The notes beneath the pieces were generated by a model that was not told the origin of the DNA, did not search any database, and worked only from the letters and a program-made list of their open reading frames with translations. A stretch of DNA of 64,000 nt, from the sequence record OZ346187.1; one strand, written 5' to 3'. Source of the stretch: a phage. The position numbers were made by a program, and so were the translations under genes. This document shows positions 55,123 to 64,000 of this stretch, piece by piece; the first letter of the stretch is position 1; every line of letters begins with the position of its first letter.

Positions 55123-55884
55123 TTAAAGTTCCATAAAGTTTTCTACAGTTTCAATAAATGCTTTATCAGAGAAAGCGTCAACAGCACCGTTAAACCATAC
55201 AGGGATCCCGCGATCCTCATATTGATAAAGGTCGCTACGTGAAATGCCACTTCCATCTGCACTCTGCGAGTCATACTTGTTTACAATCAGCAGTTTTGTG
55301 CCTTTACAAGTAGCAGGAAACAATTCCCAGTTAAAATTAATAACTGTGTTAGAACAACCTACTAGGATCACCATATCATTGCTTGTGAGAGATGTCAACA
55401 GGTCATACATGTCTGTATACTTAGGAGCAACCTCACCGAAGAACACTACATTGGGCTTAACCCAGGTATACTTGCCTGTATCTACCTCCGTGTATCCGAT
55501 ATTTTTAATTACATCATTACCTTCAGCATCTTCGTAGGTGATTTCAGGCAAATACCCGTGGACATGTAAAATATCTTCATGTTTTACACCAGCACGCTCC
55601 AGCAAATCATCTACATTGGTGGTAAGGTTGATCACACGACCAGACCAGCGGGAATACCACTCAGCGATCCGAAGATGTGCAAGGTTAGGATCAACACTGC
55701 CCAGAGCTACACGACGTGCATTGTAAAAGTCATGCACCTTATAGTAATTCTTGGCAAAGGTGTGAATGTTGCACACCTCATCGATGCTGAAATTCTCCCA
55801 CATTGCAGTGCTACCAGATCGGAAAGTGGGAATACCAGATTCAGCGCTCAAACCAGCACCGGAGATAATAATCAGTCGTCGCAT
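55123..55884 (-). CDS. Sir2-like NAD-dependent enzyme lacking the zinc ribbon
   Basis: GAGLSAESGIPTFRSG, TTNVDDLLERAG, HVHGY sirtuin motifs; no CxxC...CxxC zinc module. Confidence 0.7.
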   Translation of the reverse strand: MRRLIIISGAGLSAESGIPTFRSGSTAMWENFSIDEVCNIHTFAKNYYKVHDFYNARRVALGSVDPNLAHLRIAEWYSRWSGRVINLTTNVDDLLERAGVKHEDILHVHGYLPEITYEDAEGNDVIKNIGYTEVDTGKYTWVKPNVVFFGEVAPKYTDMYDLLTSLTSNDMVILVGCSNTVINFNWELFPATCKGTKLLIVNKYDSQSADGSGISRSDLYQYEDRGIPVWFNGAVDAFSDKAFIETVENFMEL

Positions 55885-55892
55885 AAGTGTCC

Positions 55893-56243
55893 TCAGTAGA
55901 TGTTTTGTTTAATCTCTATTCCAAACTTCTTGAATGAGTCAGCAGCAAGCATAAATTTACGAGCTGCCGATGGATTAGAAGTATGCACGAAAATAATCAC
56001 GTTGTCAATAAGTGGTGGCTTTCCGAATACAAGTTTCTCCTCTAGCGCAGAGAAGCAGTCGTACCCTTCAAGCACTTCACCTAGATCATTGTCAAAATAC
56101 CACTCAGATACGCGTCTGTAGAGCTTTCTCTTATCATTAAGAAAATCCATAAACTCAGAAGAATTCTTTAGCCACAGAGCGTCTGGGAGTCCATAATCTG
56201 ACGGATCTCTAAAATCATCAAGCCACACAATCCACTTCTTCAT
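55893..56243 (-). CDS. hypothetical protein
   Basis: 116-aa ORF between Sir2-like and RNA-ligase-like genes. Confidence 0.4.
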   Translation of the reverse strand: MKKWIVWLDDFRDPSDYGLPDALWLKNSSEFMDFLNDKRKLYRRVSEWYFDNDLGEVLEGYDCFSALEEKLVFGKPPLIDNVIIFVHTSNPSAARKFMLAADSFKKFGIEIKQNIY

Positions 56244-57175
56244 TGCATATAGTCCTCGTTGTGGAAATAGTAGTCCAGTATCTCACGACGCTCCTGCTCT
56301 AATAAGCAATTCCACACATCTTCTGTATAGTTGCTACGAATAAATTTTACCATACCGTAAAACTCTTCGTCAACACGTTTAAAGATATCATCATCCCAAA
56401 TCTTCCAAGCTTTACCCCTCATTACTGCCTTCTGTGCCAGATAGTATGGAGACTTGATCTTCAGCTGCAGATCATAAGGGTAGTAAGGCTTACGAATCAT
56501 ATACCCTTCACCTCTTGTTTCTGCAGCTAATTCTTTTGCATAGCTGAACGGAATTTCACGCACAGTGTTAGGACGTTTTGCACCAAGGTATTTGGCAATC
56601 CCATCTAAAGCTGCTTCTGGTAGCATTATTCCAGAATCATTATATCTGCAACCTATCAAATATGCGCCATGGTCTTCTTGAACAATATGCGGATCTGAAG
56701 GGTGACAAATTTCAAACATGAATGTCATGTTTTCATTGCCCATAACCTTCTTGATAAGATCTAAATTACCACATTGCTCTTGGATGGTTTCCTTTGCAAG
56801 GTTACAATATGGAGAATCAAGAGACCCGGTTGTTGAGAACAATAGGTCACCTTTATGAGATGATACCACACCAAGGAATCCGTTCTTTTTCTCTACCGCA
56901 GTCACAAGCTTATTGTCAGGCAGGTTGGTGGAGTTTTCTCCCAAGTTAAACACTTTTGTGAAGGGCCATGCCACAACATTTCCTTCATTACCTACAACAA
57001 TGCCTCGGCACTCCAGTAAACGAGGGGACAAATGCCATAAATTGTTGTAAAATACTTTTCTAGCATATTTATAGATCTTTAACCCGAGATCTGGGTAATA
57101 CCTACTGGTTGCAAGACCTTTGTCAACTAGGTCGTCTGCATTAAAATACTTCATTATATGTTCCTCATTTGTCAT
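56240..57175 (-). CDS. putative RNA ligase (Rnl1-like nucleotidyltransferase)
   Basis: Motif I-like EKKNG, motif IV-like EGYMIR, motif V-like LKIKSP; likely start is the second Met (57154) after a GAGGAA RBS. Confidence 0.45.
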   Translation of the reverse strand: MTNEEHIMKYFNADDLVDKGLATSRYYPDLGLKIYKYARKVFYNNLWHLSPRLLECRGIVVGNEGNVVAWPFTKVFNLGENSTNLPDNKLVTAVEKKNGFLGVVSSHKGDLLFSTTGSLDSPYCNLAKETIQEQCGNLDLIKKVMGNENMTFMFEICHPSDPHIVQEDHGAYLIGCRYNDSGIMLPEAALDGIAKYLGAKRPNTVREIPFSYAKELAAETRGEGYMIRKPYYPYDLQLKIKSPYYLAQKAVMRGKAWKIWDDDIFKRVDEEFYGMVKFIRSNYTEDVWNCLLEQERREILDYYFHNEDYMQ

Positions 57176-57218
57176 TTTGTCAGTCTATCCTGCCACACAA
57201 ATAACTTAGTGTCAACAC

Positions 57219-57247
57219 TTGAAATTAACAAAACAGTTAGGTATACT
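57219..57247 (+). promoter_or_regulatory. sigma70-type promoter
   Basis: TTGAAA, 17-bp spacer, TATACT. Confidence 0.45.
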
Positions 57248-57275
57248 ACCGTTGAAATTAAAACGGAGGGTCGCT

Positions 57276-57686
57276 ATGTCTAAAATGCTATATATCGTGC
57301 GTGGTCTACCAGGGTCTGGCAAATCAACACTGGCAAATGCGCTATCTTTAGAGGGTCTGTATCCACATTTTGAGAACGACATGTTCTGGTATGACGATGA
57401 CGGCAATTACAACTGGGATGCAAGTAAAGTAACACTCGCAGCAAAATGGTGCAAAGATAACGTAGAAGATATGATGCGTATGGGATACGACCGTATCGTG
57501 GTAAGTAATACGTTTACAAAAGAAAAACATGTGCAGGAATATGTTGACATGGCAATCACTCATGGGTATAGTTATACCGTGATCGTGGTTGAAAACCGCC
57601 ACGGCAATAAAAGCATTCATGATGTTCCAGACAAGGTTGTGGATCGTATGGAACGCCAGCTTAAAAACTGCATTAAACTTAAATGA
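57276..57686 (+). CDS. P-loop kinase, polynucleotide-kinase-like
   Basis: Walker A GLPGSGKST; ATG at 57276 after ACGGAGGG; ORF track 57219-57686. Confidence 0.5.
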   Translation: MSKMLYIVRGLPGSGKSTLANALSLEGLYPHFENDMFWYDDDGNYNWDASKVTLAAKWCKDNVEDMMRMGYDRIVVSNTFTKEKHVQEYVDMAITHGYSYTVIVVENRHGNKSIHDVPDKVVDRMERQLKNCIKLK

Positions 57687-57693
57687 GGAATGT

Positions 57694-58248
57694 ATGAAAT
57701 ACTTTGTAACAAGCGACACACACTTTCTCCACCAGCGGGTCATGGAGTTTGATTCATGTCAAAAACACAGATCTCAGTATGATCACAATCTTGACAGTAT
57801 GAATGCGGGAATCATCACCAAGTGGAACTCTGTTGTGTCACCTGCAGACACTGTGTTCCACTTGGGAGATATTGCATGCACTAATGATAAGAATATCAAC
57901 AAATTGCTCCCAGATATTCTAAATATGTTGAACGGACATATTATTCTTGTTCGTGGCAACCATGACACAAGGACGACTGTCAAAATTATGAAAGAGTTCG
58001 GTCATGAGGTTGTAGATTATTACGAGCTTCGCCACAACAAGAATTTGATCTGTATGAGCCATTACCAGTTTGCAAAGTGGAACAGAAAGCCTCACGGATC
58101 AGTCCAACTGTTCGGTCATGCTCACGGAACCACACAACAGTTGTTTGGCAGGCAGCTTGATGTCGGTTGGGATGTGTGGGGGAGACTCTTACCATTAGAA
58201 GAGGCATACCGTATTGCAATGAGTTTTGATATTGACAGCAGGGAGTAA
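57694..58248 (+). CDS. calcineurin-like metallophosphoesterase
   Basis: SDTHF, GDI, GNHD metallophosphatase motifs; ATG at 57694 after GAGGAA; ORF track 57589-58248. Confidence 0.6.
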   Translation: MKYFVTSDTHFLHQRVMEFDSCQKHRSQYDHNLDSMNAGIITKWNSVVSPADTVFHLGDIACTNDKNINKLLPDILNMLNGHIILVRGNHDTRTTVKIMKEFGHEVVDYYELRHNKNLICMSHYQFAKWNRKPHGSVQLFGHAHGTTQQLFGRQLDVGWDVWGRLLPLEEAYRIAMSFDIDSRE

Positions 58249-61074: not shown

Positions 61075-61103
61075 TTGACAAACTTTGCTTAACAGTGTAA
61101 TAT
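61075..61103 (+). promoter_or_regulatory. sigma70-type promoter upstream of tRNA cluster
   Basis: TTGACA, 17-bp spacer, TAATAT. Confidence 0.5.
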
Positions 61104-61162
61104 TGTAAACATGGTCTCCCACCTTTTCTGGCGGCTAAGGTGTAAAAGAAAGCCACCCAGTG

Positions 61163-61237
61163 CCCTGTTAGCTTAGTGGATAAAGCAGCGGCCTTCTAAG
61201 CCGTTGACACTGGTTCGAGTCCAGTACGGGGTGCCAA
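61163..61237 (+). tRNA. tRNA-Arg (anticodon TCT)
   Basis: Hand-folded cloverleaf: acceptor GCCCTGT/ACGGGGT (with G.U pairs), anticodon loop CTTCTAA, T-loop GGTTCGAGTCC, CCA encoded. Confidence 0.65.
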
Positions 61238-61241
61238 ATTG

Positions 61242-61327
61242 GGGAGTTATCCCGTAGAGGTAGCGGTGTAGACTGTAAATCTATTGTCATTGCGACTCGG
61301 GTGGTTCGACTCCACCACTCCCCACCA
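61242..61327 (+). tRNA. tRNA-Tyr (anticodon GTA), long variable arm
   Basis: Acceptor GGGGAGT/ACTCCCC, anticodon loop CTGTAAA, T-arm GGTGG-TTCGACT-CCACC, CCA encoded. Confidence 0.65.
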
Positions 61328-61441
61328 AATTTATATTTTTAGATGCATAAATAATACAGATAATGGCATTGATATTTATCGTCGTTTATACTAGTCACTA
61401 ACTGCTCGAAAATCAGTGTCATTATCAGTATAATTTATAAA

Positions 61442-61532
61442 GGAGGGTAGGGAGCAATGGTGCTCAAGCGGTCTTGAAAACCGTCCCGTTGAGGATGACT
61501 CGATGATGGTTCGATTCCATTACTCTCCGCCA
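61442..61532 (+). tRNA. tRNA-Ser (anticodon TGA), long variable arm
   Basis: Acceptor GGAGGGT/ACTCTCC, D-stem GAGC/GCTC, anticodon loop CTTGAAA, T-loop GGTTCGATTCC, CCA encoded. Confidence 0.6.
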
Positions 61533-61630
61533 CATTGTTGACCTTGTAATTAAGCGAAAGCCGGAAGCAGAACCGGATTATCAAATGTTACAGTCGTCAT
61601 CGCCGACTAGCAACATGGTCAACATACTGA

Positions 61631-61729
61631 GCTAGGTAAGCCCTTTGGCAAGGGCGAGGATTTTTAATCCTGAAAATAGACGAGGTAGTCGTTGAATACA
61701 TAGGTGGTTCGATTCCATCACCTAGCACC
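61631..61729 (+). tRNA. atypical tRNA-like gene (~99 nt), anticodon ambiguous (most consistent with TTT)
   Basis: Perfect 7-bp acceptor GCTAGGT/ACCTAGC, D-arm GCCC-TTTGGCAA-GGGC, T-arm GGTGG-TTCGATT-CCATC; anticodon stem imperfect with loop TTTTTAA; ~29-nt extra region before the T-arm; 3' end ACC then T (CCA not fully encoded). Confidence 0.35.
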
Positions 61730-61734
61730 TTTTT

Positions 61735-61810
61735 GCTGATGTAGCACAATCGGTAGTGCAATTGATTTGTAATCAATAGGTTGTAGGTTCAAGTCCTGCC
61801 ATCAGCACCA
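61735..61810 (+). tRNA. tRNA-Thr (anticodon TGT)
   Basis: Acceptor GCTGATG/CATCAGC, D-arm GCAC-AATCGGTA-GTGC, anticodon stem ATTGA/TCAAT with loop TTTGTAA, CCA encoded. Confidence 0.7.
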
Positions 61811-61811
61811 A

Positions 61812-61886
61812 GGCCCTGTAGCTGGAAGGTTCAAGCAAGCGACTCATAATCGCCAGACGGTGGTTCAATTCCACCCAGGGCCACCA
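61812..61886 (+). tRNA. tRNA-Met (anticodon CAT; initiator, elongator or Ile-lysidine type not resolved)
   Basis: Acceptor GGCCCTG/CAGGGCC, anticodon loop CTCATAA, T-arm GGTGG-TTCAATT-CCACC, CCA encoded. Confidence 0.65.
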
Positions 61887-61897
61887 AATAGTAAATA

Positions 61898-61974
61898 CTC
61901 CGCGTAGCTCAGCTTGGTAGAGCGCCTGATTTGGGATCAGGAGGTCGAGTGTTCGAATCACTCCGTGGAGACCA
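61898..61974 (+). tRNA. tRNA-Pro (anticodon TGG)
   Basis: Acceptor CTCCGCG/CGTGGAG, D-arm GCTC-AGCTTGGTA-GAGC, anticodon stem CCTGA/TCAGG with loop TTTGGGA, T-arm GAGTG-TTCGAAT-CACTC, CCA encoded. Confidence 0.7.
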
Positions 61975-63078: not shown

Positions 63079-63503
63079 TGTCTAAGATTTACGGACCGTG
63101 TTCTGAAAAGCAGAAGATGATCCTAGAAAACGATGCAGATATTTTGGTAATCGGCGGTGCCGCAGGGTCTGGCAAGTCGTTCCTCTTGCAATTGATGCCA
63201 CTTAAAATTATTGATGACCCCCACAGCTCTGTGGTTATGTTCCGAAGAACAACCCCACAGTTGGAAGGTGAGGGTGGATTATGGCCTAAAGCAGTAGCTA
63301 TTTATAGTGATCTGCCTGAAAACATTAAGCCAAAGTTTAGAGAGAAGGATCATAAGTTCATTTTTCCACGGTTTGATCCGAACACTGGCAAGTGGGATAG
63401 AAGCAAAAAGGGAGCTGTTGTAAAATACTGCCACATGGAGTATGTACAAGATAAGCTTAACCATCAGGGGCTTGAGTACACCATGGTTTGCTTCGATGAG
63501 GGT
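63078..63503 (+). CDS. terL: terminase large subunit, exon 1 (ATPase N-terminus)
   Basis: Walker A GGAAGSGKS, Walker B MVCFDEG; ORF stop 63504-63506 falls immediately after the proposed 5' splice site (exon ends in U). Confidence 0.5.
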
Positions 63504-64000
63504 TAATTTGTAGCTCTCGTAAAACCTCCCTAATTGCGGGGAAATCTTTATTATTGACACCACCAACCTGTCATGGTAACATGACAGAGGCTTCGAAGAG
63601 AGATCGAAGGTATGGTAACAGTGTGTTAATTTAGATAATCCGCAGCGAAGCATCCGAGAGGATGAACGTTCAACGACTAGTCGAAAGACGTAGAATCAAG
63701 CGATTCGAAACGGGAGGGTGAATGTGTAATACTAAGAAATGTATGGATTGCCAAAGAGTTCTACCTATTGATGATTTCTTTTTATCATCTAAGAGCAAGG
63801 ATGGATACTCAGGTACATGCAAGGAATGCTATATGTACTACAGGAAGGGTGGATCTCGTAAAAACAAAAATATGGTTAAGAGAGATGATGCAGCATTGTT
63901 TATTCAAGACTTGCTGAAGAAAGGTGAACTTTTTGAATGCAAATCTTGTCATGAAAGTATGCTCGCTGATAGTTTTTACACAAAACGTGACTATGGTAAA
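63504..64000 (+). mobile_element. group I intron in terL (3' end beyond window)
   Basis: P element AATTGCGGGGAAA (63531), Q element AATCCGCAGC (63640), R element GTTCAACGACTAG (63682), followed by an RBS and ORF. Confidence 0.6.
63722..64000 (+). CDS. intron-encoded zinc-finger protein, probable homing endonuclease (3' partial)
   Basis: ATG after GGGAGGGTGA RBS inside the intron; CxxC ... CxxC and CKSCH cysteine pairs; continues past window end. Confidence 0.4.
   Translation, partial: MCNTKKCMDCQRVLPIDDFFLSSKSKDGYSGTCKECYMYYRKGGSRKNKNMVKRDDAALFIQDLLKKGELFECKSCHESMLADSFYTKRDYGK

What the first reader, a model, noticed from the sequence alone, without database searches (positions are those of the whole stretch)
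61631..61729. Atypical 99-nt tRNA-like gene inside the tRNA cluster
A perfect 7-bp acceptor stem, canonical D-arm and T-arm (GGTTCGATTCC) flank an imperfect anticodon stem with loop TTTTTAA and an unusually long (~29 nt) segment before the T-arm; the 3' end is ACC then T. This could be a tRNA with a non-standard variable region, a tRNA carrying a small insertion, a pseudo-tRNA, or a tRNA-like regulatory RNA.
Basis: seen in the sequence. Interest (0 to 1): 0.55.

Follow-up and report, generated by a model that had tools for sequence, protein, structure and literature searches.

The report
Conserved tRNA-shaped phage RNA, non-decoding
The odd 99-base "tRNA" in this rV5-like coliphage is a real member of a conserved, undescribed family of tRNA-shaped RNAs found in the tRNA clusters of several phage groups; its anticodon arm looks unfit for reading codons, so it is probably a tRNA mimic whose job is still unknown.

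Summary
Window 61631-61729 (+) has a 7-bp acceptor stem, D arm, T arm, a short "anticodon" hairpin and a 31-nt variable region, and it ends in ACC-T. ARAGORN calls exactly these coordinates as tRNA-??? and Rfam tRNA scores 35.5 bits.

It is neither chance nor a pseudogene. Homologues occur in more than 180 phage genomes (Vequintavirinae, Stephanstirmvirinae, one N4-like phage), always inside tRNA clusters and almost never annotated. Across 27 distinct sequences every helix cell pairs, and 11 pairs show compensatory changes. The tertiary G19:C56 elbow pair switches to U19:A56 without exception.

It is not a conventional tRNA. The anticodon hairpin is 15-16 nt, against the canonical 17. Its loop differs between lineages (YAUCAAA, CAUCCA, UUUUUAA, UUUAUAA). 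Positions 8 and 14 are swapped to A8/U14. The variable region is 31-40 nt with invariant linkers.

The best reading is a tRNA-processed, non-decoding tRNA mimic. In rV5 its loop copies E. coli tRNA-Lys(UUU), and a T4-type RNA ligase/kinase/phosphoesterase cassette lies 3-5 kb away. That points to the contest over tRNA cleavage, but the function is unproven. A decoding tRNA-Lys remains a live rival.

The parts
61631..61729 (+). Whole tRNA-like gene, 99 nt through the encoded ACC. The next base is T, so A76 is not encoded.
   Evidence: ARAGORN; Rfam tRNA 35.5 bits; family covariance model R1 101.4 bits.
61631..61637 (+). Acceptor stem 5' strand, GCTAGGT. It pairs with 61720-61726.
   Evidence: Seven Watson-Crick pairs. 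Pairs 3:70, 4:69, 5:68 and 6:67 change on both sides across the family.
61638..61656 (+). A8-A9, D arm GCCC-TTTGGCAA-GGGC, then G26. It has A8/U14 instead of U8/A14. The arm can extend to a 6-bp stem with a 4-nt loop.
   Evidence: D-stem pairs 11:24, 12:23 and 13:22 covary. The D-loop G that corresponds to G19 covaries with T-loop C56 (GC in 18, UA in 9). The MFE fold gives 6 bp plus a 4-nt loop.
61657..61671 (+). Hairpin at the anticodon position, AGGATTTTTAATCCT, 15 nt. It reads as 4 bp plus UUUUUAA, or 5 bp plus UUUUA.
   Evidence: Stem level 4 is A-U, U-A or C-G in different lineages. The loop sequence and length are not conserved. It shares UUUUAAUC with E. coli tRNA-Lys.
61672..61702 (+). 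Variable region of 31 nt: linker GAAAATAG, extra hairpin ACGA-GGTAG-TCGT (61680-61692), then linker TGAATACATA.
   Evidence: AATACATA is invariant in 27 of 27 aligned members and GAAAA nearly so. The extra-arm stem covaries (ACGA/TCGT versus ACGG/CCGT) and has other forms in other genera.
61703..61719 (+). T arm, GGTGG-TTCGATT-CCATC.
   Evidence: Pair 51:63 is U-A or C-G and pair 50:64 is G.U or G-C. T-loop C56 covaries with the D loop.
61720..61729 (+). Acceptor 3' strand ACCTAGC, discriminator A73, and CC.
   Evidence: Most relatives encode U73 plus CCA. The rV5 and Av-05 groups do not encode a full CCA.
61162..61974 (+). The surrounding tRNA cluster (context): Arg-tct, Tyr-gta, Ser-tga, the element, Thr-tgt, Met/Ile-cat, Pro-tgg.
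   Evidence: ARAGORN. A promoter-like site TTGACA-17-TAATAT lies at 61075-61103. GenBank annotates a P(tRNA) promoter in rV5, slightly downstream of this site.
56240..58248 (.). RNA end-healing and sealing cassette 3-5 kb upstream. This is context and not shown to be linked. It comprises a T4 Rnl1-type RNA ligase (56240-57175, -), a P-loop kinase (57219-57686, +) and a metallophosphoesterase (57589-58248, +).
   Evidence: Pfam PF09511 1e-14, AAA_33 1.6e-10, Metallophos 5e-6. Annotated as RNA ligase, polynucleotide kinase and phosphoesterase in phage AlexBoehm.

Best explanation
The element is a functional gene for a tRNA-shaped RNA that belongs to a conserved, so far undescribed phage family.

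Shown:
- It lies in the same orientation inside the phage tRNA cluster.
- It keeps a 7-bp acceptor stem, a D arm, a T arm and the D-loop/T-loop elbow contact under clear purifying selection.
- Its anticodon-position hairpin and its 31-40 nt variable region are non-canonical in every lineage.

Inferred:
- It is co-transcribed with the tRNAs.
- It is released by RNase P and 3' trimming, and completed to CCA by the host enzyme. Most relatives encode CCA. rV5 lacks only A76.
- The hairpin is 15-16 nt rather than 17 and its loop changes in both length and sequence between lineages, so the RNA most likely does not read codons.
- It probably acts as a tRNA mimic that engages a tRNA-binding factor through its acceptor/elbow body, with the hairpin and extra arm as the specific part.

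My preferred concrete mechanism is speculative, at about one chance in three given the mimic reading. The RNA would be a decoy or competitor for host tRNA-directed nucleases. In the rV5 lineage the hairpin presents a copy of the E. coli tRNA-Lys(UUU) anticodon loop, the classic target of PrrC-type anticodon nucleases. The phage also carries a T4-like RNA ligase/kinase/phosphoesterase repair cassette.
For: - **Real gene, exact boundaries:**
- **Family size and placement:** 129 and 189 phage records match by BLAST. Further members come from IMG/VR and metagenome scans. All lie in tRNA clusters.
- **Separation from ordinary tRNAs:** model R1 scores members 82-121 bits and ordinary tRNAs at most 28.6 bits.
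- **Covariation:** 100% of 540 cells pair. Eleven pairs change on both sides. No shuffle of 500 reaches this, and slid controls give 0-2 such pairs. The tertiary 19:56 pair is GC in 18 sequences and UA in 9, with no exceptions.
- **Anticodon hairpin stem:** level 4 is A-U in 4, U-A in 12 and C-G in 9 combinations.
- **Non-decoding signs:** the hairpin is 15-16 nt. The loops are UUUUUAA, UUUAUAA, CAUCCA, CAGCCA, CCUCCA, CUUCCA, YAUCAAA and AAUCAAG, with A33 in the most widespread form. ARAGORN misses all but the rV5/Av-05 type, and relaxed runs give inconsistent isotypes.
- **Neutral variation within the rV5 type:** variants change only loops or switch between wobble and Watson-Crick pairs.
- **tRNA-damage context:** Rnl1-type ligase, kinase and phosphoesterase lie at 56240-58248. 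The ligase is shared with Mydovirus and phi92-like phages that also carry the family.
- **Resemblance to tRNA-Lys:** the rV5 hairpin shares UUUUAAUC with the verified E. coli tRNA-Lys.
- **Phage-specific:** no copies in 5,426 E. coli genomes, PLSDB plasmids or GTDB genomes.
Against: - There are no expression, processing or aminoacylation data of any kind. Maturation by RNase P and CCA addition is inferred from context.
- The decoy idea rests on an 8-nt resemblance and on a repair cassette that many phages without this RNA also carry.
- Loop type follows phage lineage rather than host genus. That is not what a simple host-nuclease decoy predicts.
- The rV5-type loop obeys canonical anticodon-loop rules (U33, A37) and has A73, so decoding as tRNA-Lys is not excluded.
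- Phage V18 has lost the 5' half through a Tyr/element chimera and is still a viable isolate. The RNA is therefore dispensable under some conditions.
- The invariant linkers may serve folding only and need not mark a partner-binding site.
Confidence: 0.45

Rival explanations
1. It is a working elongator tRNA-Lys(UUU) with an exceptionally large variable arm. It would be charged by LysRS and used to read AAA/AAG, perhaps as a nuclease-resistant replacement for host tRNA-Lys.
For: - The rV5-type loop UUUUUAA has U33, anticodon UUU and A37, and the discriminator is A73. Anticodon and A73 are the E. coli LysRS identity elements (my own knowledge of tRNA identity rules; sequence).
- The BASEL-collection phage records (AlexBoehm and related phages) annotate it tRNA-Lys.
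- The rV5 cluster has no other tRNA-Lys.
- Rfam tRNA scores above the gathering threshold.
- van den Berg et al. (PMC10264068) argue that phage tRNAs replace nuclease-targeted host tRNAs and note coliphage tRNA-Lys together with rnl1.
Against: - The stack from the D stem to the loop is one layer short (G.G plus 4 bp). U-A pairs can close the loop to 5 or 3 nt.
- The sister clade Av-05 has UAU with U73 or C73. All other lineages have 6-nt loops or A33 loops with U73, so no anticodon or identity is conserved in an otherwise strongly conserved RNA.
- A8/U14 and a 31-nt variable region are not known in any tRNA-Lys.
- LysRS is a class II enzyme that approaches from the variable-loop side (my own knowledge), so the extra arm would probably clash.
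- No CCA is encoded, unlike the six canonical tRNAs of the cluster.
Confidence: 0.17
2. It is aminoacylated but used outside the ribosome. It would be an amino-acid donor for a transferase, as with the non-proteinogenic tRNA-Gly of staphylococci, or a charged or uncharged tRNA signal, as with B. cereus tRNA-Other.
For: - Most members encode an intact NCCA end.
- G1:C72 is kept in 25 of 27 and C2:G71 in 27 of 27, with U73 in most.
- Together with C35-C36 in the CAUCCA lineages, this matches five of the six E. coli GlyRS identity elements (identity set from my own knowledge).
- An aberrant anticodon arm would keep such an RNA off the ribosome.
Against: - The discriminator varies (U, A, C). G3:C70 is never present. 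C35-C36 is lineage-specific.
- The rV5 and Av-05 groups have lost the encoded CCA.
- No aminoacyl-tRNA-dependent transferase is annotated in the AlexBoehm genome, though most of its genes are hypothetical. Pfam found none among the eight ORFs scanned in the window.
Confidence: 0.1
3. It is a cis-acting element of the tRNA operon. It would serve as an RNase P entry site or a transcription attenuator or terminator that shapes processing or the levels of the neighbouring tRNAs.
For: - It abuts the neighbouring tRNAs. It lies 5 nt before tRNA-Thr in rV5 and 2-5 nt after a tRNA in other genera.
- In rV5 the acceptor/T-arm hairpin is followed by TTTTT and scores as terminator-like.
Against: - The T-run is specific to rV5. 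Other members are followed by CCA-AA.
- A punctuation role would not need an invariant variable-region core, elbow covariation or a conserved extra-arm loop.
- The canonical tRNAs around it already supply RNase P sites.
Confidence: 0.07
4. It is a recoding tRNA. It would be a natural quadruplet (+1 frameshift) decoder, as ARAGORN's 4-base anticodon AUCC suggests, or a stop-codon suppressor, as the tRNA-Stop(tta) annotation and the UCA-centred loops of relatives suggest.
For: - ARAGORN reports (atcc) for rV5 and Av-05.
- If the closing C-G pair opens, the CAUCCA lineages have an 8-nt loop CCAUCCAG that also centres on AUCC.
- The widespread YAUCAAA loop centres on UCA and resembles the tRNA-Sec loop. 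The D arm can form 6 bp plus 4 nt as in tRNA-Sec.
Against: - ARAGORN's stem for rV5 (ATTTT/AAAAT) cannot form in relatives and conflicts with the covarying hairpin.
- No single loop reading holds across lineages.
- A33 replaces U33 in the UCA forms.
- The acceptor/T arrangement is 7/5 with U73, not 8/5 with G73, so the tRNA-Sec tests fail.
- TTA is off-centre in the rV5 loop.
Confidence: 0.03
5. It is a decaying relic, a pseudo-tRNA with no function of its own.
For: - V18 has lost half of it.
- The rV5 and Av-05 group has a shortened extra arm, an AU-rich loop and no encoded CCA.
Against: - It is conserved across at least three phage taxa.
- All 540 helix cells pair and many changes are compensatory, including within the rV5/Av-05 clade.
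- The flanks have diverged while the element is kept.
Confidence: 0.04

Closest known systems
Stable tRNA-like RNAs of phage tRNA clusters: T4 species 1 and 2 RNAs (rnaC, rnaD) and T5 RNA1, RNA2, RNAI and RNAIII
   Same: Small RNAs of roughly 100-145 nt encoded among the phage tRNA genes. The T4 and T5 records annotate them as stable or tRNA-like RNAs of unknown function.
   Different: There is no detectable homology. The family model gives rnaC 9.2 bits (E=0.28) and finds nothing at the T5 RNAs. The present family keeps a complete cloverleaf plus an extra arm.
Class II (long-arm) tRNAs Leu, Ser and Tyr, and tRNA-Sec (Rfam RF00005, RF01852)
   Same: Cloverleaf with an extra arm between the anticodon and T arms. 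A 6-bp/4-nt D arm is possible, as in tRNA-Sec. The best non-family hits of the model are Leu(taa), Ser(tga) and Tyr. Relatives score 23-40 bits on the tRNA-Sec model.
   Different: The variable region is 31-40 nt with 7-10-nt invariant single-stranded linkers. The family has A8/U14, a 15-16-nt anticodon hairpin and non-conserved loops. It has 7/5 rather than 8/5 and U73 rather than G73. The tRNA-Sec scores fall below the gathering score of 47.
Non-translational tRNAs and tRNA mimics: B. cereus tRNA-Other (PMC3399842), bacterial Y-RNA YrlA tRNA-like module, staphylococcal cell-wall tRNA-Gly, gammaherpesvirus vtRNAs
   Same: tRNA-shaped RNAs that are processed like tRNAs but act outside decoding. 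YrlA is encoded with an RNA-repair ligase operon (my own knowledge), and here a repair cassette lies nearby.
   Different: There is no sequence or model match. Rfam YrlA gave only a 25-bit chance-level hit elsewhere in the cluster. The architecture differs and the hosts are virulent phages.
Nuclease-evading phage tRNAs (anticodon-loop variants; van den Berg et al. 2023, PMC10264068)
   Same: Phage tRNA-cluster genes with altered anticodon loops, interpreted in the context of host anticodon nucleases. Coliphage tRNA-Lys is linked with rnl1.
   Different: Those are otherwise canonical, decoding tRNAs with point changes. This RNA has an altered arm length and a remodelled core, and it shows no conserved anticodon.
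allo-tRNAs (Mukai et al., PMC5389517)
   Same: Non-canonical long-arm tRNAs found in bacteria and phages during tRNA-Sec searches, with diverse anticodons.
   Different: allo-tRNAs are defined by 8/4 or 9/3 acceptor/T branches and normal 7-nt anticodon loops. This family is 7/5 with abnormal loops.

Membership tests
Canonical elongator tRNA (Rfam RF00005) | 7-bp acceptor stem, 4-bp D stem, 5-bp T stem with a T-loop of the TTCRANY type | tested here: met
   All pairs are kept in 27 of 27 sequences with covariation.
Canonical elongator tRNA (Rfam RF00005) | G19:C56 elbow tertiary pair | tested here: met
   GC in 18 and UA in 9 sequences, never mixed.
Canonical elongator tRNA (Rfam RF00005) | 5-bp anticodon stem plus a 7-nt loop with U33 and purine 37 (17 nt in all), and an anticodon conserved among orthologues | tested here: not met
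   The hairpin is 15 or 16 nt in all 32 members. Loops are 5-7 nt, with A33 in the commonest form. The loop sequence differs by lineage. The rV5 type alone shows U33 and A37, but on a 4-bp stem.
Canonical elongator tRNA (Rfam RF00005) | U8 and A14; variable region of 4-5 nt (class I) or roughly 13-22 nt (class II) | tested here: not met
   A8 and U14 are invariant. The variable region is 31-40 nt.
Canonical elongator tRNA (Rfam RF00005) | Score above the Rfam gathering threshold; called by tRNA finders | tested here: inconclusive
   rV5 scores 35.5 bits against 29. Relatives match only tRNA-Sec, below threshold. ARAGORN calls only the rV5 type, as tRNA-???. tRNAscan-SE was not available.
Canonical elongator tRNA (Rfam RF00005) | Aminoacylation and use on the ribosome | not testable with these tools
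   Needs tRNA-seq, charging assays and polysome analysis.
Bacterial tRNA-Sec (RF01852) | 8-bp acceptor plus 5-bp T stem (13-bp branch) and G73 | tested here: not met
   7/5 branch. The discriminator is U, A or C and never G.
Bacterial tRNA-Sec (RF01852) | 6-bp D stem with a 4-nt loop, a long extra arm, and anticodon UCA | tested here: inconclusive
   The 6/4 D arm is predicted, but the two extra pairs never vary. UCA occurs only in some lineages, and there with A33. Scores of 23-40 bits fall below the 47-bit threshold.
T4 rnaC/rnaD and T5 stable tRNA-like RNAs | Sequence or structure homology to those RNAs | tested here: not met
   Model R1 gives 9.2 bits at rnaC and no hit at rnaD or at T5 RNA1, RNA2, RNAI or RNAIII.
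T4 rnaC/rnaD and T5 stable tRNA-like RNAs | Encoded within the phage tRNA cluster; a stable processed RNA | tested here: inconclusive
   The location criterion is met. Stability and processing were not testable.
tmRNA | tRNA-Ala-like domain plus a tag reading frame | tested here: not met
   ARAGORN tmRNA search and Rfam found none. There is no G3:U70.
allo-tRNA | 8/4 or 9/3 acceptor/T branch | tested here: not met
   7/5 in all members.

The most novel reading that the evidence does not exclude
This is the founding member of a new class of phage non-coding RNAs. They would be tRNA-bodied molecules matured by the tRNA machinery, whose remodelled anticodon hairpin and extra arm make them inhibitors, decoys or sensors for tRNA-directed host immunity or RNA-repair enzymes. 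That would make them an RNA-based anti-defence factor hidden in plain sight in tRNA clusters. A second aberrant tRNA with a 6-nt loop sits next to it in Mydoviruses, which hints that such molecules are a wider phenomenon.
Probability: 0.2. Interest if true: 0.85.

Novelty: new variant of a known kind. Interest (0 to 1): 0.62.

Why it matters
Why phages carry tRNA genes is a 50-year-old question. Current thinking links them to host nucleases that cut tRNAs. Here a strongly conserved RNA uses the tRNA body but seems to have given up the anticodon, in phages that are easy to manipulate (rV5, the BASEL collection, PVP-SE1 relatives, phi92 relatives). If it proves to be a mimic or decoy, it would add an RNA player to phage counter-defence. 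It would also help explain the long-mysterious "stable tRNA-like RNAs" of T4 and T5.

There is a practical side. The gene is unannotated or mislabelled (Lys, Stop, OTHER) in well over a hundred GenBank genomes. It has no Rfam family of its own: rV5 matches only the general tRNA model and relatives match only tRNA-Sec below threshold.

Tried and rejected
- **ARAGORN's own fold for rV5** (stem ATTTT/AAAAT, 8-nt loop, anticodon ATCC). Rejected because relatives cannot form it and the alternative hairpin covaries.
- **Homology to T4 rnaC/rnaD and the T5 stable RNAs.** None found.
- **A bacterial or prophage origin.** The invariant motif has no exact hit in 185,579 GTDB species genomes. BLAST finds nothing in 5,426 E. 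coli genomes or in PLSDB plasmids.
- **Descent from a particular tRNA isotype or from the neighbouring tRNA-Ser.** Gapped identities of 76-82% to Thr, Gly, Cys, Met and Arg tRNAs are at noise level and give no clear parent.
- **An sRNA-like seed.** The complement of the invariant linker (CCTATGTATTY) occurs nowhere else in the window.
- **Literature.** Seven full-text searches found no description of this RNA. The rV5 genome paper lists six tRNAs and omits it.
- **A tRNA-dependent enzyme partner.** A whole-genome annotation read of phage AlexBoehm found only the RNA ligase/PNK/phosphoesterase cassette.
- **Pairing between the two variable-region linkers** (AUGU with ACAU). It is seen in pEa55 and L038 only and is not family-wide.

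Full report
**What is there.** The window matches rV5-like coliphages (Vequintavirus), at 100% identity to rV5_ev168 and to several phages of the BASEL coliphage collection. A tRNA cluster lies at 61162-61974 (+): Arg(tct), Tyr(gta), Ser(tga), the element, Thr(tgt), Met/Ile(cat) and Pro(tgg). Rfam's tRNA model aligns it end to end at 35.5 bits against a gathering score of 29. It does so only by deleting one base at the start of the anticodon stem and inserting 26 nt in the variable region.

Read directly, the parts are:
- acceptor GCTAGGT/ACCTAGC, seven perfect pairs
- A8 A9
- D arm GCCC-UUUGGCAA-GGGC
- G
- hairpin AGGA-UUUUUAA-UCCU
- G
- linker AAAAUAG
- small hairpin ACGA-GGUAG-UCGU
- linker UGAAUACAUA
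- T arm GGUGG-UUCGAUU-CCAUC
- discriminator A, then CC, then U

The minimum-free-energy fold is this five-arm cloverleaf (z=-3.7).

**Annotation history.** GenBank records disagree. The original rV5 record and its paper list six tRNAs and omit this one. The BASEL phage records call it tRNA-Lys(AAA). JLBYU08 calls it tRNA-Stop(tta). Several Danish isolates call it tRNA-OTHER.

**It belongs to a conserved family.** BLAST with the element finds it nearly unchanged in about 120 Vequintavirus genomes and at about 93% identity in Avunavirus. In those matches only the element itself aligns, not its flanks. A search seeded with the Seunavirus copy finds 189 records across several groups, almost always with no annotation:
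- Seunavirus (Salmonella, Cronobacter, Enterobacter)
- Mydovirus (Klebsiella, Raoultella, E. coli)
- Henunavirus (Erwinia)
- one N4-like Schitoviridae phage of Salmonella, UTK0002

Motif scans of IMG/VR and of metagenomes add more variants. These include Stephanstirmvirinae phages of Klebsiella and phi92-like coliphages. Every copy sits in a tRNA cluster, usually 2-5 nt from a neighbouring tRNA. No copy exists in 185,579 species-representative bacterial genomes (exact motif), in 5,426 complete E. coli genomes or in PLSDB plasmids. A covariance model built from 27 distinct members scores family members 82-121 bits and ordinary tRNAs at most 28.6 bits.

**The tRNA body is under selection.** On the 27-sequence alignment, all 540 helix cells form standard pairs. 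Eleven of 20 pairs change on both sides. No shuffle of 500 reaches this, and sliding the partner columns gives 0-2 such pairs.
- Acceptor pair 3:70 is C-G, A-U or U-A, and pair 4:69 is G-C, A-U or U-A.
- Three D-stem pairs flip.
- T-stem pair 51:63 is U-A or C-G.
- The D-loop base corresponding to G19 and the T-loop base C56 change together to U and A (18 GC, 9 UA, no exceptions). This is direct comparative evidence for the tRNA elbow, and so for an L-shaped fold.

Within the rV5 type, the few variants change only loop bases or switch between wobble and Watson-Crick pairs.

**It is not a conventional tRNA.** Four traits are family-wide:
1. A8 and U14 replace the near-universal U8 and A14. The D arm can extend to 6 bp with a 4-nt loop.
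2. The hairpin at the anticodon position is 15 or 16 nt instead of 17. It reads as 4 bp plus 7 nt, or 5 bp plus 6 nt (5 bp plus 5 nt in rV5), bracketed by a conserved G.G. Its stem covaries (fourth pair A-U, U-A or C-G), so the hairpin itself matters.
3. Its loop is not conserved:

| Lineage | Loop |
|---|---|
| Henunavirus, Stephanstirmvirinae, phi92-like, N4-like | YAUCAAA (A33, not U33) |
| IMG/VR contig L075 | AAUCAAG |
| Seunavirus, Mydovirus | CAUCCA (variants CAGCCA, CCUCCA, CUUCCA) |
| rV5 type | UUUUUAA |
| Av-05 type | UUUAUAA |

4. The variable region is 31-40 nt. Its linkers are almost invariant (GAAAA at the 5' side, AAUACAUA at the 3' side). Between them sits a helix that varies in length and sequence and comes in at least three forms. 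One form has a conserved 12-nt loop, GAAYUAACAGUA.

Most members encode U73-CCA. The rV5 group has A73-CC and the Av-05 group encodes no CCA. ARAGORN detects none of the non-rV5 types. With relaxed settings and introns allowed, it assigns Gln, Tyr, Gly, Leu, Trp and Asn to six members, which is no consistent conventional fold. Its fold for rV5 uses a stem that relatives cannot form. No orthologous decoding tRNA changes its loop length and anticodon between sister genera while keeping everything else. I therefore conclude that the RNA most probably does not read codons.

**Context.** Three to five kb upstream the window encodes a T4 Rnl1-family RNA ligase (56240-57175, -), a P-loop kinase (57219-57686, +) and a metallophosphoesterase (57589-58248, +), next to a Sir2 protein. 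AlexBoehm annotates the first three as RNA ligase, polynucleotide kinase and phosphoesterase. In T4 this enzyme set repairs tRNA-Lys cut by the PrrC anticodon nuclease (established knowledge, summarised in PMC10264068). The ligase is also present in Mydovirus and phi92-like phages that carry the RNA, but it occurs in many phages that do not.

The rV5 hairpin shares the eight bases UUUUAAUC (tRNA positions 33-40) with E. coli tRNA-Lys(UUU), whose sequence I verified in all 5,426 genomes. These points make the contest over tRNA cleavage a plausible arena, and they are the basis for my preferred decoy mechanism. They are circumstantial.

**Rivals.**
- A real tRNA-Lys with a giant arm cannot be excluded for the rV5 lineage, which has U33, UUU, A37 and A73 and no other tRNA-Lys in the cluster. 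It fits poorly with the short stem stack, the swapped core, the missing A76 and the family-wide loss of any anticodon identity.
- A charged but non-ribosomal role is possible. G1:C72 is kept in 25 of 27, C2:G71 is invariant, U73 is frequent, and CC is present in many loops. Together these resemble the GlyRS identity set, but the discriminator varies.
- A recoding tRNA (quadruplet AUCC or UGA or UAA suppressor), a cis-acting processing element and a decaying pseudogene are each disfavoured by specific observations listed under the rivals.

**Comparison with known systems.** Functionally the nearest precedents are the stable tRNA-like RNAs annotated in the tRNA clusters of T4 (rnaC, rnaD) and T5 (RNA1, RNA2 and others), all of unknown function. 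The family is not homologous to them by the covariance model. Structurally it resembles class II tRNAs and tRNA-Sec, but it fails their defining tests. In Rfam 15 rV5 matches only the general tRNA model and relatives match only tRNA-Sec below threshold. Seven literature searches found no description. I therefore rate it a new variant of a known kind, a phage tRNA-like RNA.

**Limits.** Everything about expression, maturation, charging and partners is inferred. tRNAscan-SE and R-scape were not available. The shuffle control does not correct for phylogeny, although the slid-partner control does keep relatedness. The comparison with E. coli synthetase identity sets rests on my own knowledge of the tRNA identity literature.

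Noticed in passing
L007 (Escherichia phage V18, NC_041937) 1155-1245: V18 carries a chimera. The 5' part of tRNA-Tyr(gta), through ...AAATCTATTG, is fused to the 3' part of the tRNA-like gene (GTCGTTGAATACATAGG...ACCTAGCACC). The deletion removed the rest of Tyr, tRNA-Ser and the 5' half of the element, so the element is dispensable in at least one isolate.
   Followed up: partly
L016:1411-1485, L018:1411-1485, L035:4166-4240, L006:1419-1494: In Mydoviruses the 75-nt tRNA immediately upstream of the element has a 6-nt anticodon loop, ACGAUA. ARAGORN reports '???(ga)' for it and GenBank variously calls it Ser. The Seunavirus orthologue has ACGAUUC, without U33 or a purine at 37. This looks like a second aberrant tRNA family next to the first.
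   Followed up: partly
window 61533-61630: The 98-nt spacer between tRNA-Ser and the element has an 8-bp inverted repeat, TGTTGACC...GGTCAACA, enclosing two hairpins (CCGG-N8-CCGG and AGTCG-N7-CGACT). The fold is -25.8 kcal/mol, z=-2.6. One GenBank record (phage isim) marks a repeat_region here. It could be another small structured RNA or a remnant.
   Followed up: partly
window 63494-63720: A group I intron-like match (Rfam RF00028, 41.3 bits, below the gathering score of 50) falls inside the large terminase gene. The rV5 record annotates that gene as joined from three pieces.
   Followed up: no
window 55123-58248: A Sir2-family gene sits beside the Rnl1-type RNA ligase, P-loop kinase and metallophosphoesterase cassette. 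This is a possible RNA-repair or NAD-linked module a few kb from the tRNA cluster.
   Followed up: partly
L051 (Klebsiella phage KP13-26) 1208-1309: An unannotated 102-nt tRNA-like sequence with a long variable region and an encoded ACCA end lies in a gap between two annotated ORFs (1153-1326). It scores 23.8 bits with the family model but is not a family member.
   Followed up: no
L038:7862-7934, L047:2791-2865, L051:2757-2831: Stephanstirmvirinae Klebsiella phages that carry the family also encode a tRNA with anticodon CUA. ARAGORN and GenBank label it tRNA-Pyl. It is a putative amber suppressor.
   Followed up: no
GenBank MG0656xx records: About 18 records named 'Campylobacter phage' are 99-100% identical to rV5-like coliphages across the tRNA cluster. 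They are probably mislabelled or contaminant assemblies.
   Followed up: no
window 61442-61532: The phage tRNA-Ser(tga) is itself unusual, with A at position 8. The rV5 authors found it only with ARAGORN. Here it scores higher on the Rfam tRNA-Sec model (41.5 bits) than on tRNA.
   Followed up: no
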